Assembly (NCBI GenBank): GCA_963741945.1
Contig: CAVUKA010000005.1
Coordinates: 64,001 to 128,000, forward strand
Length of the DNA: 64,000 bases
DNA from: an uncultured Gemmatimonadales bacterium
GTDB taxonomy: Bacteria; Gemmatimonadota; Gemmatimonadetes; Longimicrobiales; RSA9
Direction of reading: 5' to 3'
Shown here in pieces: positions 5,445 to 50,391 of the stretch. Below the pieces are notes generated by a model. The model was not told where the DNA came from and did no database searches. It was given only the letters and a program-made list of their open reading frames with translations. Every line of letters starts with the position of its first letter. Positions within the stretch are counted from its first letter, which is position 1. The position numbers and the translations under genes were made by a program.

Positions 5445-7256
5445 CTACGGCAGCGCCTTGCGGTTGTCGGACCGGTCCGCCTCGATCAGCACGTGATCCG
5501 GATCGAGGAGCACGGCTTCCGGCCTGCCATCCAGGTGGAACGTGACCCGCTGCACCCGATCGGGCGACTCCAGCCGCTTCCGCTCTCCGCCCGCCTCCAC
5601 CACCACCGGCATCCACGCCTCGCCTTTGCGCACGACCTCCGCCGTGACCGTGTATGCGCCGTTCTCCTGCCGGACGGAGACATCGCCGACCGCGTAGTCG
5701 AGAAGCTCGGTCCGATCGATCCACTCCTCGAAGAACCAGTCCAGGTCACGGCCGGCCACGGATTCCATGACGTTCTCGAAGTCCGCCGGCGTGACCTGGT
5801 GGAAGCGGAACCGGTCGTAATACGCGTGCATGGCACGGAGGAACGTCTCCTCGCCGATCACGTAGCGCAGCATGCGCAGCACCGCCGCGCCCTTCTCGTA
5901 CGTCATCATGCTGTACATCGGGTAGCTGGCGAAGTCCGCCCCCGGCAGTCCCACGGGCTCGCCGCGACCCGCGGCATCGAGATGCGCCACCTCGGCCATG
6001 GTGCGCCCCCAGACGCGGTCGGGGTCGGCTCCGTCCCGCACCGCCAGCCAGTTGGACAGGAAGCTCGCCATGCCCTCATCCAGCCAGCCGTCCCGCCATT
6101 CGTTGTTCGCCAGCACGCCATGGAAGATCATGTGCATGGTCTCGTGCGTGATGGCACCCCCGCTGGTCATGAACAGCATCTCGAACTCGGTGGCCCCGCG
6201 CTCGACGCGATCGGTGACGGTGATCTGCGGCCAGGGGTACTCGCCCACCACCGTGACGATCCAGTCCAGCGCCGCCTTCTCCTGCGTCATCGTCCGCTCC
6301 GGGTCCCACCGCTCGTTCGTGGGCTCCCACAGCAGGTTGATCGGCCGGCCGTTCCACCGCCCGCCCATGTAGACGTAATCGGGGGACGTGCTCCAGGCGA
6401 AGTTGTGCACCTTCTCGGCGTGCCAGCGGATCCGCTTGCGACCGGCGACGGCATCGCCGGTCAGGAGACCCAGCGGCTGGGACGCCCCGATGTTGTAGAA
6501 GTCACGGAGGAAGCGTGGCGGCTCCGATCCCTGCACGGCCACGGCGCCCCATCCGGGGTCGCCCTCCACCGGGAGTCCCGTCGCGCCCACCACCTGATCG
6601 ACGGGAAGATCCAGCGTGACGTCATACGTGCCGAAGTTGCCGTTCAGCTCCCCGGGCCTGATGTGGGGCCGGTACTCCCAGCCTCCCGGTCCGTAGACGG
6701 CGATGCGCGGGTACCAGTGCGCCCAGTCGTAGTGCCGCCCCTTCCGCCCCTGGCGACGCGGGTGCGTGGAGAGCCGCGCCGTCCAGTCGATGACCGCCAC
6801 CACGCTGTCCCCCGGCTCGAGCGGCCGGGGCAGCTCGACATAGAAGACGGTCGAGTCCGGCGATCCGGGGTAGACCGGAGCCACCGCTTCCCCGTTCAGG
6901 GTGAACCCCGACAGTCGCTCGAACGCCTGGTCCGGCGCCGGCAGGTCCTGGTACTCGCGGTCGCCGTGCGCGAGGTCGTACTGCGCCCACGCGCTGTTGG
7001 GCCGGAAGGCGTTCAGGTACTGGTGGAAATAGAGCCGCTCCAGCGCCGCGGGGGCGTTGTTCGTGTACGTGAGGCGAGCCCGCCCGCGAAGCACGTCCGT
7101 GGCATCGTCCTGGAACGCCTCGATGCGGTAGCGCACCCCCTGCTGGAACGGGTGCGAGCGCTTCGGGGCCGCGCTCTCCTGCGCCCTCAGCGCGCCCGGC
7201 GAAAGGAGAACGGCCGAAAGGACGACCGAAGCAACGGCTGCAATGGAACGGGTCAC
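5445..7256 (-). CDS. M1-family zinc aminopeptidase, exported
   Basis: HETMH-x18-E zinc motif, WLDEG, YEKGA, signal peptide. Confidence 0.88.
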   Translation of the reverse strand: MTRSIAAVASVVLSAVLLSPGALRAQESAAPKRSHPFQQGVRYRIEAFQDDATDVLRGRARLTYTNNAPAALERLYFHQYLNAFRPNSAWAQYDLAHGDREYQDLPAPDQAFERLSGFTLNGEAVAPVYPGSPDSTVFYVELPRPLEPGDSVVAVIDWTARLSTHPRRQGRKGRHYDWAHWYPRIAVYGPGGWEYRPHIRPGELNGNFGTYDVTLDLPVDQVVGATGLPVEGDPGWGAVAVQGSEPPRFLRDFYNIGASQPLGLLTGDAVAGRKRIRWHAEKVHNFAWSTSPDYVYMGGRWNGRPINLLWEPTNERWDPERTMTQEKAALDWIVTVVGEYPWPQITVTDRVERGATEFEMLFMTSGGAITHETMHMIFHGVLANNEWRDGWLDEGMASFLSNWLAVRDGADPDRVWGRTMAEVAHLDAAGRGEPVGLPGADFASYPMYSMMTYEKGAAVLRMLRYVIGEETFLRAMHAYYDRFRFHQVTPADFENVMESVAGRDLDWFFEEWIDRTELLDYAVGDVSVRQENGAYTVTAEVVRKGEAWMPVVVEAGGERKRLESPDRVQRVTFHLDGRPEAVLLDPDHVLIEADRSDNRKALP

Positions 7257-48639: not shown

Positions 48640-48875
48640 TCGTGGCGTAGCACGTGAACTTCTCTACGAGGTTGTCCCAGGCATAGCTCACCTTGTCAGC
48701 TTCGACCTGATCCACCGCTCGGCGCCTCTCAACTACTTCACAGACCGCACGATCGCGCGGTTGTACCACCTGCTCCAGTCGTGCTTCAGATCTCCAGTAT
48801 CGGGGAAGGCGCAGGTCTCGTCGGAGAAAATGACCACATGCTGCTCGAACACGACCAGCACATCACAGACCGCAG
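48640..48875 (-). pseudogene. Degraded relic of a larger gene (nuclease-like/SEC-C-associated hypothetical family)
   Basis: CDVLVVFEQHVVIFSD...DWSRWYNRAIVRSVK*LRGAERWI has an in-frame TAG, then the reading switches frame to EADKVSYAWDNLVEKF. GC is lower than the flanks. Confidence 0.45.
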
Positions 48876-48897
48876 GGCACCGAGGGTCACCGAAACA

Positions 48898-48930
48898 GAA
48901 AAACCCGCACCGTAAGTCACGGTGCGGGTT
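48898..48930 (-). terminator. Rho-independent terminator after tRNA-Arg(CCG)
   Basis: AACCCGCACCGT-aagtc-ACGGTGCGGGTT stem, followed on the minus strand by a T-run. Confidence 0.8.
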
Positions 48931-48943
48931 CAACTTGGAACAG

Positions 48944-49017
48944 TGCGCCCGACAGGATTCGAACCTGTGACCTCATGCTCCGGAGGCATGCGCTCTATCC
49001 AACTGAGCTACGGGCGC
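48944..49017 (-). tRNA. tRNA-Arg(CCG), CCA not encoded
   Basis: GCGCCCGTAGCTCAGTTGGATAGAGC, anticodon arm CATGC-CTCCGGA-GCATG, T-loop GGTTCGAATCC. Confidence 0.95.
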
Positions 49018-49375
49018 AGAAACGCGTGGAACCACAACCTGCCGTCCACCCGCCTGCATGTCCACCCTGCGGCAAAGTGTCGTCGCGCGAAGCGTGGCGA
49101 CAACTGAGCTACGGGCGCAGAAACGCGTGGAACCACAACCTGCCGTCCACCCGCCTGCATGTCCACCCTGCGGCAAAGTGTCGTCGCGCGAAGCGTGGCG
49201 ACAACTGAGCTACGGGCGCAGAAACGCGTGGAACCACAACCTGCCGTCCACCCGCCTGCACGTCCACCCTGCGGCAAAGTGTCGTCGCGCGAAGCGTAAC
49301 GACAACTGAGCTACGGGCGCAGAAACGCGTGGAACCACAACCTGCCGTCCACCCGCCTGCACGTCGACGCTGCGG
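49000..49375. repeat. About 3.7 tandem copies of a 101-bp unit containing the tRNA-Arg(CCG) leader and its first 18 nt
   Basis: Units start at 49000, 49101, 49202 and 49303. Units 1 and 2 are identical, unit 3 has 3 substitutions, unit 4 is partial. Confidence 0.97.
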
Positions 49376-49389
49376 GCCCTCTGTTTCTG

Positions 49390-49786
49390 GCAGCGGGGAA
49401 GCGGAATAAGCCGAGTTCTGTCTCCGGCGAACCGGAGGCGAGCCATTTCTCTGGGACGGCGGTCGCCCGCCGCCTCGAGCAGCCTACCCGGGACTCTCAC
49501 GACGAATCGCGTCGGCGCGGGCCGCGCCATCATCCCTGCTTGGCCTTGCTCCGGGTGGGGTTTACCATGCGACGACTGTTGCCAGCCGCCCGGTGGTCTC
49601 TTGCACCACCCTTTCACCCTTGCCTGTGCCGGCGCCTTTCGGCTCCGGCCATCGGCGGTCTGCTCTCTGTGGCACTTTCCAGCGCCTCGCGGCGTCCGGG
49701 CGTTACCCGGCACCCTGCCCTGCGGAGCTCGGACTTTCCTCGACCGTCTCACGGACGGCCGCGGCTCGCACTCGCTTCCCTCTGCT
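49390..49786 (-). ncRNA. rnpB: RNase P RNA (bacterial type A)
   Basis: GAGGAAAGTCCGAGC, GGAAAGTGCCACAGA, GGTAAACCCC, ACAGAACTCGGCTTA, and complementary ends (GGGAAGCG/CGCTTCCC). Confidence 0.95.
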
Positions 49787-49823
49787 GTCAAACAGCACGG
49801 CCCCCGCTGCGGGGGGCCGGCAA

Positions 49824-49897
<74 letters not shown>

Positions 49898-50391
49898 AAT
49901 CCGGAGAAAGAACCGCCCGCGGTTCGCCATGCGCCCCGCGGGGTCGATTGCCCTCCCCGATCAGCCTCGGAATTCTAGTGCCGGCGCCCCGGCCTGTCAA
50001 CCGGCGGTGCCGCCCCGGACGCAATAGCCCCGGCACATATTGACCCACCCCCTCGCGATGTGGAGCTGTCGTGTTTTGGGGTGGTGGGGCGGGAGCGGTT
50101 CTGGACGGTGTGGGATCAGCTGTTTGACAGCGGGGGTGTTCGAACGCCGAAGCGCCGCAGGCGCGGGAGGCGACGCTTTGTCCTGGGAGATCGTGTTGAA
50201 CGATCACCCCGAAATTCGACCGGAGGCCCTCGCTCTTCCGCCGGTACTGCTCGAGGCTGAGTACCAGCGCGAGCAGGTGGGTCAGGATGTGCCCGAGCTT
50301 GCCGCGGTGCCGCCCCGGATCACAGCGCGGACGACAGGAATGGGGCGGCGCGCGCGCCGCCCCATTCCTCGTGGCTCAACTCCGCCGTGGC

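What the first reader, a model, noticed from the sequence alone, without database searches (positions are those of the whole stretch)
49000..49375. Array of tRNA 'false starts': 101-bp repeats carrying the pre-tRNA leader and tRNA 5' end, between rnpB and tRNA-Arg(CCG)
Seen: on the transcribed (minus) strand, rnpB is followed by three copies of [leader + GCGCCCGTAGCTCAGTTG + hairpin]. The fourth copy of that 18-mer runs on into the complete tRNA. The 18 nt are the 5' acceptor strand and the start of the D-arm. Divergence is polar: the two units next to the tRNA are identical and mutations increase towards rnpB. Known: E. coli has tandem repeats after rnpB and tyrT, but those duplicate the 3' end of the RNA gene. 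Integrative elements also usually duplicate the tRNA 3' end, so a 5'-end array is the unusual polarity. Inference: each copy reproduces the RNase P cleavage junction and could pair with the tRNA 3' acceptor strand (CGGGCGC). The array could then act as decoy substrates, yield ~101-nt small RNAs, or tune the supply of the CGG-decoding tRNA by copy number. It could also be neutral slippage.
Basis: partly seen in the sequence, partly recalled or inferred. Interest (0 to 1): 0.8.

Follow-up and report, generated by a model that had tools for sequence, protein, structure and literature searches.

The report
Truncated tRNA-start repeats before tRNA-Arg
Between the RNase P RNA gene and an arginine tRNA gene this soil-type bacterium carries three tandem 101-base units, each starting with the first 17-18 bases of the tRNA followed by a conserved hairpin; the same hairpin module sits in front of several other tRNA genes in related genera, a mirror image of the poorly understood tRNA-linked repeats of E. 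coli.

Summary
On the minus strand lie tRNA-Arg(ACG), rnpB, a 101-nt tandem array (one partial and three full units) and tRNA-Arg(CCG). Each unit is tRNA nt 1-17/18, an imperfect 11-bp hairpin and a roughly 60-nt leader.

It is not a one-off. The sister species has four units. A second genus has a single orthologous unit, whose false start sits where the tRNA itself begins in 19 of 30 related loci, 5-16 nt after rnpB.

A covariance model of the hairpin hit 10 of 73 genomes of the family. Of the 23 hits at E<=0.001, 22 lie upstream of a tRNA on its strand, before Arg-CCG, Val-CAC, Gly-CCC, Gly-GCC or Ala-TGC. The hairpin covaries: 5 of 11 pairs change on both sides. The false start is 17/17 identical across three lineages, while the rest of the unit is 60-86% identical apart from one short segment.

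One promoter-like site and one terminator-like site bracket the locus, so the array is probably co-transcribed. That is inferred, not shown.

Best reading: an old, lineage-specific tRNA-linked leader module, inserted once at the D-loop position and later amplified by unequal crossing-over. Its function is unknown; a role in precursor processing is the best guess. Decoy, small-RNA and dosage roles remain untested. Tests for an acceptor-like closing stem were negative.

The parts
49972..50000 (-). promoter-like site TTGACA-17-TAGAAT upstream of tRNA-Arg(ACG); the only one found in 48700-50200
   Evidence: 11 of 12 matches; the shuffles gave a mean of 0.0 such sites
49823..49898 (-). tRNA-Arg(ACG)
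49798..49819 (-). G+C-rich hairpin with a weak T tail between tRNA-Arg(ACG) and rnpB (terminator-like by pattern only)
49391..49781 (-). rnpB, RNase P RNA class A
   Evidence: RF00010, 259.7 bits, model positions 1-367
49321..49376 (-). partial unit (3' flank and leader only) ahead of the first false start
   Evidence: 4 differences in 56 against the tail of a full unit
49220..49320 (-). unit 1 (rnpB-proximal): false start 49303-49320, hairpin 49280-49304; 3 differences from units 2 and 3, of which the CC-to-TT change keeps the pairing
49119..49219 (-). unit 2: false start 49202-49219, hairpin 49179-49203
49018..49118 (-). unit 3 (tRNA-proximal), identical to unit 2: false start 49101-49118, hairpin 49078-49102
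48943..49017 (-). intact tRNA-Arg(CCG); the only tRNA with this anticodon that ARAGORN finds in the genome
48901..48931 (-). terminator-like hairpin (14 pairs) plus a T run directly after tRNA-Arg(CCG)

Best explanation
The array is a tandemly amplified copy of a lineage-specific 'tRNA-linked leader module'.

Origin (inferred from comparison). In the ancestor, tRNA-Arg(CCG) began 5-16 nt after rnpB. Once, in the common ancestor of two genera, a segment of about 84 nt came to lie after nt 17 of the tRNA gene, at the D-loop sequence AGTT. The segment starts with a conserved imperfect hairpin and ends with a new leader. The first 17 nt of the tRNA were duplicated, so an intact gene was kept downstream and the original 5' end was left behind as a false start. 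How the segment arrived is not known. Illegitimate recombination through the D-arm sequence shared by these tRNAs is my preferred guess.

Amplification (inferred). Unequal crossing-over between the false start and the real start then changed the copy number: 1, 3 and 4 units in three species. It also homogenised the units within each species.

Transcription (inferred from sequence patterns). The only promoter-like site lies upstream of tRNA-Arg(ACG) and the only good terminator-like site lies after tRNA-Arg(CCG). The array is therefore probably transcribed inside a tRNA-rnpB-tRNA precursor and has to be removed during maturation.

Function (inferred, weakest step). The covarying hairpin and the invariant false start suggest that the module is under constraint. 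The most likely role is as a folded spacer or processing element of the precursor. It may preserve an RNase P-type cleavage context next to rnpB.
For: (1) The array is real and repeated; coordinates and scores are under the observation check.

(2) Sister species G001 has 4.2 copies of a 101-nt unit, 98% matches within the array and 88% identity to G000, with its own fixed differences.

(3) G072, of another genus, has one orthologous unit. Its false start lies 8 nt after rnpB.

(4) In 19 of 30 related loci the tRNA itself starts 5-16 nt after rnpB.

(5) In an rnpB tree, g1 and g5 form a clade (support 97/93), with an element-free genus as sister (98/98).
- Both g1 genomes carry an element at the Arg locus.
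- So do all 5 g5 genomes that could be examined.
- Two further g5 genomes could not be judged: one contig end and one with no match.

(6) A covariance model of the hairpin hit 10 of 73 family genomes at E<=0.01.
- Of the 23 hits at E<=0.001, 22 lie upstream of a tRNA on the same strand; the copy nearest each tRNA ends 7-55 nt before it. One hit is cut by a contig end.
- There were no hits in 50 + 50 genomes of two sister families.

(7) Covariation: 85% of cells are paired, and 5 of 11 pairs change on both sides. None of 500 shuffles reaches the observed value on four of the five measures (97 of 500 do on the fifth, the count of further pair types). Slid controls pair in 19-71% of cells.

(8) The false start is 17/17 identical in all three pairwise comparisons of G000, G001 and G072. 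The hairpin is 83-86% identical and the leader 60-81%. There are 0 changes in the 7 false starts of the two arrays.

(9) One promoter-like and one good terminator-like site bracket the locus, and none lies inside the array.

(10) A soil metatranscriptome contig from a relative joins the rnpB 3' end, 96 other letters and tRNA-Arg(CCG). This is only a weak hint of co-transcription.
Against: - No RNA ends, cleavage sites or expression data exist for this organism. Transcription is inferred from pattern matches only.
- The hairpin could be conserved as a DNA structure rather than an RNA one. The alignment used for covariation was fitted to the model, which leans towards the structure.
- Fold energies are not better than shuffles (z -0.2 to -1.7 for units; -0.9 for the whole leader).
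- My three attempts to show a tRNA-like closing stem all failed against controls:
  - pairing of the acceptor 5' strand with the 3' flank;
  - likeness of the 3' flank to the tRNA 3' end;
  - complementarity of the outer arms.
- The false start is degenerate or absent at other loci (Val-CAC, Gly-GCC, and Arg in G068 and G071), so it is not a universal part of the module.
- Presence is patchy. G001 and G005 have a 7-8-nt Glu-Val spacer where G000 has three 61-nt units. This fits gain and loss of dispensable DNA.
- The invariance of the false start could come from gene conversion by the adjacent real tRNA rather than from selection.
Confidence: 0.55

Rival explanations
1. A small selfish, non-autonomous mobile element (a palindromic cassette) inserts at the D-loop-coding sequence of tRNA genes that share the ..TAGCTCAGTT.. 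D-arm. It duplicates the target's 5' end, and the false starts are target duplications. The hairpin is kept because an enzyme acting in trans recognises it as DNA.
For: - The same cassette sits in front of at least five different tRNA species in 4 genera, always joined at AGTT.
- Clean empty sites occur in close relatives.
- At least three different states are seen at the Arg locus within one genus.
- Cassettes at different loci of one genome are slightly more alike (0.83, n=7) than copies at the same locus in different genomes (0.77, n=24).
Against: - The duplicated length is not fixed: 8, 12, 16, 17, 20 and 30 nt.
- No terminal inverted repeats were seen, and no copy lies away from a tRNA leader among the 23 strong hits.
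- Only three loci occur per genome.
- No long element with the cassette at an end turned up in 73 family genomes, in the exact-pattern scan of the one-genome-per-species collection, or in the viral scan.
- At the Arg locus the pattern fits one old insertion followed by vertical descent.
Confidence: 0.2
2. The false starts act as decoy RNase P substrates, pair with the 3' acceptor strand of tRNA-Arg(CCG), yield small RNAs of about 101 nt, or tune the supply of the CGG decoder through copy number.
For: - Each unit reproduces at least 56 nt of leader plus 17-18 nt of the tRNA exactly.
- The false start is invariant across species while the rest of the unit diverges.
- tRNA-Arg(CCG) is single-copy in a genome of 70% G+C.
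- Copy number differs between species: 1, 3 and 4.
Against: - Nothing here shows cleavage, accumulation of a small RNA or any effect on tRNA level.
- No acceptor-like helix is supported statistically.
- Other members of the family lack a recognisable false start, so a decoy role cannot be the general function of the module.
Confidence: 0.13
3. Purely neutral by-product. A partial duplication of the tRNA 5' region was expanded by slippage, and nothing constrains it beyond the need to keep the downstream tRNA intact.
For: - Tandem arrays flanked by direct repeats expand and contract easily.
- Copy number varies between species.
- Presence at other loci is patchy.
- Fold energies are ordinary.
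Against: - The stem shows compensatory changes.
- The false start is 17/17 identical against 60-86% for most of the rest of the unit.
- The module is retained in 7 of 7 examinable genomes of the g1+g5 clade, although a simple deletion between the direct repeats would restore the ancestral gene.
- The same cassette recurs at unrelated tRNA loci.
Confidence: 0.1
4. Assembly artefact: repeat collapse or expansion, or a chimeric join.
For: No read or contig spans the array. No run holds more than 0.35 of the sampled words.
Against: - A separately assembled sister genome has the same architecture with species-specific substitutions.
- Exact short contig pieces of one DNA run cover the unit-unit junction and the variant unit. 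That run may be the source sample.
- A single-unit orthologue exists in G072.
Confidence: 0.02

Closest known systems
E. coli tRNA-linked repeats (TLRs), including the tyrT-tyrV 178-bp repeats. Source: passages of PMC8144298 read. The primary papers (Egan & Landy 1978; Rudd 1999) were not seen.
   Same: Short non-coding units inside tRNA or rRNA operons, 1-5 per locus. Each carries 18-19 bp identical to an end of the neighbouring stable-RNA gene. They are co-transcribed, and most have no known function.
   Different: TLRs lie downstream and repeat the 3' end of the upstream gene. Here the units lie upstream and repeat the 5' end (17-18 nt) of the downstream gene. They also share a covarying hairpin cassette across different tRNA loci. 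There is no sequence likeness, and no Rfam family matched.
Repeats 3' of E. coli rnpB (recalled from memory, Reed & Altman 1983; not seen in any call)
   Same: A tandem repeat directly downstream of the RNase P RNA gene.
   Different: As recalled, those repeats duplicate the 3' end of rnpB and its terminator. Here the repeated gene piece belongs to the downstream tRNA, and rnpB itself is not repeated.
Partial tRNA repeats at the ends of integrative elements (islands, prophages) in tRNA genes (own knowledge)
   Same: A duplicated piece of a tRNA gene brackets inserted DNA, and an intact tRNA is preserved.
   Different: Those elements duplicate the 3' part of the tRNA, are kilobases long and carry an integrase. 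Here the 5' part is duplicated and the insert is about 84 nt with no gene.
Truncated tRNA copies in tRNA leaders noted earlier in this scan (e1-685909, e1-981635, e1-848998, e1-1366979, e1-863604, e1-840968, e1-4535398; AI notes, not checked by me)
   Same: 5' stubs of a tRNA gene, often with a hairpin, lie in tandem between the promoter and the intact gene. Copy number varies among relatives. In one case the stub is split in the D-loop by a folded module.
   Different: Those are in other phyla (CPR groups, other soil bacteria) with other sequences; no look-alike of this unit was indexed. Here the module lies behind rnpB, and one cassette is shared by several tRNA species.
t-elements: tRNA-like processing signals in plant mitochondrial transcripts (recalled, not checked)
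   Same: Non-tRNA sequences that mimic part of a tRNA and serve as RNase P or RNase Z cleavage signals inside longer transcripts. This is the kind of role proposed here.
   Different: They fold into acceptor/T-arm mimics. No such fold could be supported here.

Membership tests
E. coli-type tRNA-linked repeats (TLR) | Located inside a tRNA or rRNA operon | tested here: met
   The array lies between rnpB and tRNA-Arg(CCG), within one promoter-like / terminator-like bracket.
E. coli-type tRNA-linked repeats (TLR) | The 3' end of the repeat (18-19 bp) is identical to the 3' end of the stable-RNA gene immediately upstream (PMC8144298) | tested here: not met
   The shared 17-18 nt are the 5' end of the gene immediately downstream and form the 5' end of each unit. 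This is a mirror-image analogue, not a member.
Integrative-element att repeats at tRNA genes | Direct repeats of the tRNA 3' portion flank an element that encodes an integrase | tested here: not met
   The repeats are the 5' portion. Only 83-84 nt lie between them and no gene fits. The 101-nt period is not a multiple of 3.
REP/BIME or MITE-type dispersed repeats | Many dispersed intergenic copies; terminal inverted repeats and a target duplication of fixed length | tested here: not met
   The cassette (hairpin family) occurs at two loci in this genome (6 copies); a third locus (Gly-CCC) has the same layout with a different hairpin. All are in tRNA leaders on the tRNA strand. The duplicated lengths vary from 8 to 30 nt.
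Intrinsic terminator | G+C-rich hairpin followed by a U run | tested here: not met
   The scan reports no terminator-like site inside 49018-49376. The hairpin is followed by CACTTTG or GACTTCG.
Any Rfam 15 family | Match at the gathering score | tested here: not met
   The gathering scan finds only rnpB and the two tRNAs. The permissive scan of 48990-49400 gives one weak YrlA match, E 0.48, that overlaps the real tRNA start.
tRNA pseudogene or mini-tRNA (acceptor stem plus one arm) | The 3' flank pairs specifically with the acceptor 5' strand, or derives from the tRNA 3' end | tested here: inconclusive
   Helices of 4-7 pairs can be drawn, but cross-controls score as well. Likeness to the tRNA 3' end gives z -1.2 to 2.1, with a best p of about 0.05 in 2 of 16. 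Outer-arm duplex energies are not better than shuffles.

The most novel reading that the evidence does not exclude
The false-start hairpin modules are a previously undescribed class of functional pre-tRNA leader elements, the 5' counterpart of the E. coli tRNA-linked repeats. The invariant tRNA 5' segment together with the covarying hairpin is recognised during precursor processing, for example as an RNase P or other endonuclease cleavage signal. This would release RNase P RNA from the tRNA-rnpB-tRNA transcript and set the output of the single CGG-decoding tRNA. Alternatively, they are a new kind of tiny element that retargets among tRNA genes by rebuilding the gene's 5' end.
Probability: 0.2. 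Interest if true: 0.8.

Novelty: new variant of a known kind. Interest (0 to 1): 0.55.

Why it matters
Partial copies of stable-RNA genes inside their own operons have been known in E. coli since 1978, and most still have no known function (PMC8144298, passages read).

This locus gives a mirror-image case with unusually good comparative handles:
- copy-number states of 0, 1, 2, 3 and 4 at one locus across related species;
- a cassette shared by several tRNA genes;
- a false start that stays identical to the working gene;
- a position directly behind the RNase P RNA gene, whose own 3' end in relatives is probably defined by cleavage at this tRNA.

If the module proves to be processed, it would bear on two questions. 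One is how RNase P RNA is matured from a tRNA operon. The other is whether 'tRNA-linked repeats' are a general feature of bacterial precursors; earlier notes of this scan report similar 5' stubs in other phyla (unchecked). If it proves inert, it is a clean example of concerted evolution of a tandem repeat next to an essential gene.

Tried and rejected
1. Acceptor-like closing stem between the false start and the 3' flank. Helices of 4-7 pairs exist, but flanks from other tRNA types pair as well. Not supported.

2. The unit as an internally deleted tRNA copy whose 3' flank is the tRNA 3' end. Local alignment scores are not above 500 shuffles (z -1.2 to 2.1). Not supported.

3. The whole unit as a long palindrome. 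RNAduplex energies of the outer arms are not better than shuffles or cross-pairings. The fold of the whole 448-nt leader has z -0.9.

4. Thermodynamic stability of single units: z -0.2 to -1.7, with two units above zero (+0.46 and +1.00). Uninformative at 70% G+C.

5. Loose pattern search with 3 mismatches in the family.
- 72 of 73 genomes match, but the reversed-pattern control gives roughly a third as many hits.
- Only the hits with 0-2 mismatches in G000, G001 and G019 were in context.
- The 2-3-mismatch hits elsewhere were not examined one by one.

6. Exact-pattern scans.
- Genome contigs: 4 hits. One, in a Solirubrobacterales record, lies in what reads by eye as coding sequence and is taken as chance.
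- Metagenome contigs: 1 hit, which is genuine.
- Viral contigs: 6 hits. All lie in coding-like context, without the AGTT/GACTT flanks and without an adjacent tRNA, and are taken as chance.

7. Strict false-start pattern in 401 genomes of the phylum: only this genome's own Gly-CCC locus matched. That sample held few genomes of the genera that carry the cassette.

8. Reads. No run holds the stretch. The contigs laid do not span the array, so neither copy number nor RNA ends could be read. Parts of the stretch without cover carry no meaning.

9. Intragenomic homogenisation of cassettes: 0.83 against 0.77 identity, with small n. A hint only.

10. Literature (two searches were argument-format errors).
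- No paper describing repeats of tRNA 5' ends in leaders was found.
- These were word searches of an open-access library only, so this is not proof that none is in print.
- Supplements were not consulted.

Full report
WHAT IS THERE

On the minus strand the window reads, in order:
- a promoter-like site, TTGACA-17-TAGAAT, at 50000-49972;
- tRNA-Arg(ACG), 49898-49823;
- a G+C-rich hairpin, 49819-49798;
- rnpB, 49781-49391 (RF00010, 259.7 bits);
- a 56-nt partial repeat unit, 49376-49321;
- three full 101-nt units, starting at 49320, 49219 and 49118;
- tRNA-Arg(CCG), 49017-48943;
- a terminator-like hairpin with a T run, 48931-48901.

Tandem Repeats Finder scores the array at period 101, 3.7 copies, 98% matches, score 710.

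Each unit has three parts:
- tRNA nt 1-17/18;
- a 25-nt imperfect hairpin, whose first base is the last T of the D-loop AGTT;
- a leader of about 60 nt that ends at the next start.

Units 2 and 3 are identical. Unit 1 differs at three positions, none of them in the false start. Its CC-to-TT change turns a C.A mismatch into U-A and a C-G pair into U.G. No promoter-like site lies inside the array. ARAGORN finds only one tRNA-Arg(CCG) in the genome. Transcription of the array as part of the tRNA precursor is therefore inferred, not shown.

IT IS NOT A ONE-OFF

The sister species G001 carries the same architecture with 4.2 copies (period 101, 98% matches). It is 88% identical to G000 and has its own fixed differences.

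In 19 of the 30 related loci I examined, tRNA-Arg(CCG) starts 5-16 nt after the 3' end of rnpB. Three of those 30 rows come from genomes flagged unpublished (G016, G020, G026), and the count does not depend on them.

G072, of genus g5, has a single unit orthologous to the 101-nt unit. Its false start lies 8 nt after rnpB, which is the ancestral position of the tRNA. The false start is therefore best read as the original 5' end of the gene, left behind when about 84 nt came to lie after nt 17.

An rnpB tree places g1 (G000, G001) and g5 (G072, G073, G005) in one clade (support 97/93), with an element-free genus as sister (98/98). The state of the Arg locus in that clade is:
- both g1 genomes carry an element;
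- G072 has an 18-nt false start;
- G073 and G005 have an 8-nt false start joined to a Val-type flank, and G005 has two copies, one of them internally deleted;
- G068 and G071 have the cassette without a recognisable false start;
- G070 ends at a contig end and G069 gave no match, so neither could be judged;
- genus g43 has a 27-nt spacer without the cassette.

This pattern fits one old insertion followed by local remodelling and, in g1, amplification.

THE HAIRPIN IS A SHARED CASSETTE

Within this genome the hairpin core recurs at C5:395620-395782. There three 61-nt units lie between tRNA-Glu(CTC) and tRNA-Val(CAC).

A third locus, C1:1191250-1191360, has a 13-nt leader plus a 17-nt false start of tRNA-Gly(CCC). 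This is followed at the same AGTTC junction by a different, perfect hairpin.

I built a covariance model from 9 copies and searched with it.
- It hit 10 of 73 genomes of the family at E<=0.01, in genera g1, g5, g19 and g43. One further weak hit, at E 0.0046, is not near a tRNA.
- Of the 23 hits at E<=0.001, 22 lie upstream of a tRNA gene on its strand, and 1 is cut by a contig end.
- The tRNAs are Arg-CCG, Val-CAC, Gly-CCC, Gly-GCC and Ala-TGC. The contig-end copy follows a 5' stub of Phe type.
- A metagenome contig adds a 17-nt false start of tRNA-Gly(GCC) with the cassette. It also has a 40-nt tandem duplication with a 12-nt tRNA-Phe stub and no cassette.
- Nothing was found in 50 + 50 genomes of two sister families.
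- An exact-pattern scan of one genome per species gave three genuine hits, all from this family, plus one chance hit.

Record titles name these genomes Gemmatimonadaceae (two records) and Longimicrobiales (one record).

The distance from the cassette to the tRNA falls into two classes, 7-8 nt and 48-55 nt.

EVIDENCE OF CONSTRAINT

On the model-fitted alignment of 23 copies (18 distinct), 85% of cells pair and 5 of 11 pairs change on both sides. None of 500 shuffles reaches the observed value on four of the five measures; 97 of 500 do on the count of further pair types. Slid controls pair in 19-71% of cells. An A.C mismatch is kept in 13 of the 18 distinct copies. The fit to the model biases these counts towards the structure, and the copies are related to one another.

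The false start is 17/17 identical in all pairwise comparisons of the orthologous Arg units of G000, G001 and G072. The hairpin is 83-86% identical, the 3' flank 80-100% and the leader 60-81%. Selection or gene conversion from the real gene could both explain this. In G072 only 17 nt of homology is available for conversion.

EVIDENCE AGAINST A FUNCTION

- Fold energies are ordinary.
- Three separate tests for a tRNA-like or long-palindrome fold around the hairpin failed against controls.
- Several family members lack a false start.
- Presence is patchy. G001 and G005 have a 7-8-nt Glu-Val spacer where G000 has the 61-nt array.

MECHANISM

Shown by comparison:
- the insertion point (after AGTT of the D-loop);
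- the ancestral adjacency of rnpB and the tRNA;
- a single origin at this locus;
- copy-number change with concerted evolution.

Inferred:
- amplification by unequal crossing-over between false and real starts;
- spread of the cassette between tRNA loci by illegitimate recombination through the shared D-arm sequence, or by an unknown enzyme;
- co-transcription and removal of the array from a tRNA-rnpB-tRNA precursor;
- a processing or spacer role.

A soil metatranscriptome contig from a relative joins the rnpB 3' end, 96 other letters and tRNA-Arg(CCG). This is compatible with co-transcription, but DNA carry-over cannot be excluded.

COMPARISON WITH WHAT IS KNOWN

The closest described system is the E. 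coli tRNA-linked repeat family. It has 22 units at ten loci in tRNA and rRNA operons. Each unit ends in 18-19 bp identical to the 3' end of the upstream gene, and most have no known function (PMC8144298, passages read). The present units are the mirror image, carrying the 5' end of the downstream gene, and they fail that defining feature. I therefore class them as an analogue and a new variant, not a member.

No Rfam family matches. The features of att sites, REP/MITE elements and terminators are not met (see the membership table).

Earlier notes of this scan list truncated 5' tRNA copies in leaders in other phyla. I did not check them. They suggest that the general phenomenon recurs. No look-alike of this unit is indexed.

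My literature word searches found no description of such 5' repeats. They covered open-access full text only, and supplements were not consulted.

VERDICT

The finding is of moderate interest. It is a well-resolved, conserved, apparently undescribed 5' analogue of the tRNA-linked repeats, sitting directly behind the RNase P RNA gene, with signs of constraint but no demonstrated function.

Noticed in passing
window 49391-50000 (-), and loci L010-L037: rnpB sits inside a tRNA operon: promoter-like site, tRNA-Arg(ACG), rnpB, tRNA-Arg(CCG), terminator-like site. In 19 of 30 related loci the downstream tRNA starts only 5-16 nt after rnpB. The 3' end of RNase P RNA is therefore probably set by RNase P's own cut at that tRNA (inference).
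   Followed up: partly
own genome G000:C5:395620-395782 (-), locus L074 (outside the window): Three tandem 61-nt units carrying the same hairpin lie between tRNA-Glu(CTC) and tRNA-Val(CAC). The sister species G001, and G005, have only a 7-8-nt spacer at this position.
   Followed up: partly
own genome G000:C1:1189526-1191883 (+), locus L096: A dense array of about 23 tRNA genes. Inside it, upstream of tRNA-Gly(CCC), lies a 30-nt duplicate (13 nt of leader plus 17 nt of tRNA). It is followed at the same AGTTC junction by a different, perfect 10-bp hairpin. At the equivalent position G065 has the family hairpin instead.
   Followed up: partly
L109:5694-5760 and 6205-6300 (metagenome contig): A 40-nt tandem duplication carries a 7-nt leader plus a 12-nt stub of tRNA-Phe without the cassette. 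In the same tRNA array there is a 17-nt false start of tRNA-Gly(GCC) with the cassette.
   Followed up: no
leaders downstream of the cassette in L072, L074, L086, L088, and window 49040-49060: A short motif, (T/A)GGACGG, recurs 15-30 nt downstream of the hairpin in the leaders of several different tRNAs. It was seen by eye and not tested against chance.
   Followed up: no
run X9 record 25: A 244-nt soil metatranscriptome contig joins the rnpB 3' end, 96 unmatched letters and a tRNA-Arg(CCG) identical to the window's. It probably comes from a relative with a single leader module.
   Followed up: no
own genome, ARAGORN list: About ten of the 57 ARAGORN calls are 90-101 nt long with atypical 5' ends. 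They are likely false positives in G+C-rich coding DNA. One tRNA-SeC is called at C1:35510-35606.
   Followed up: no
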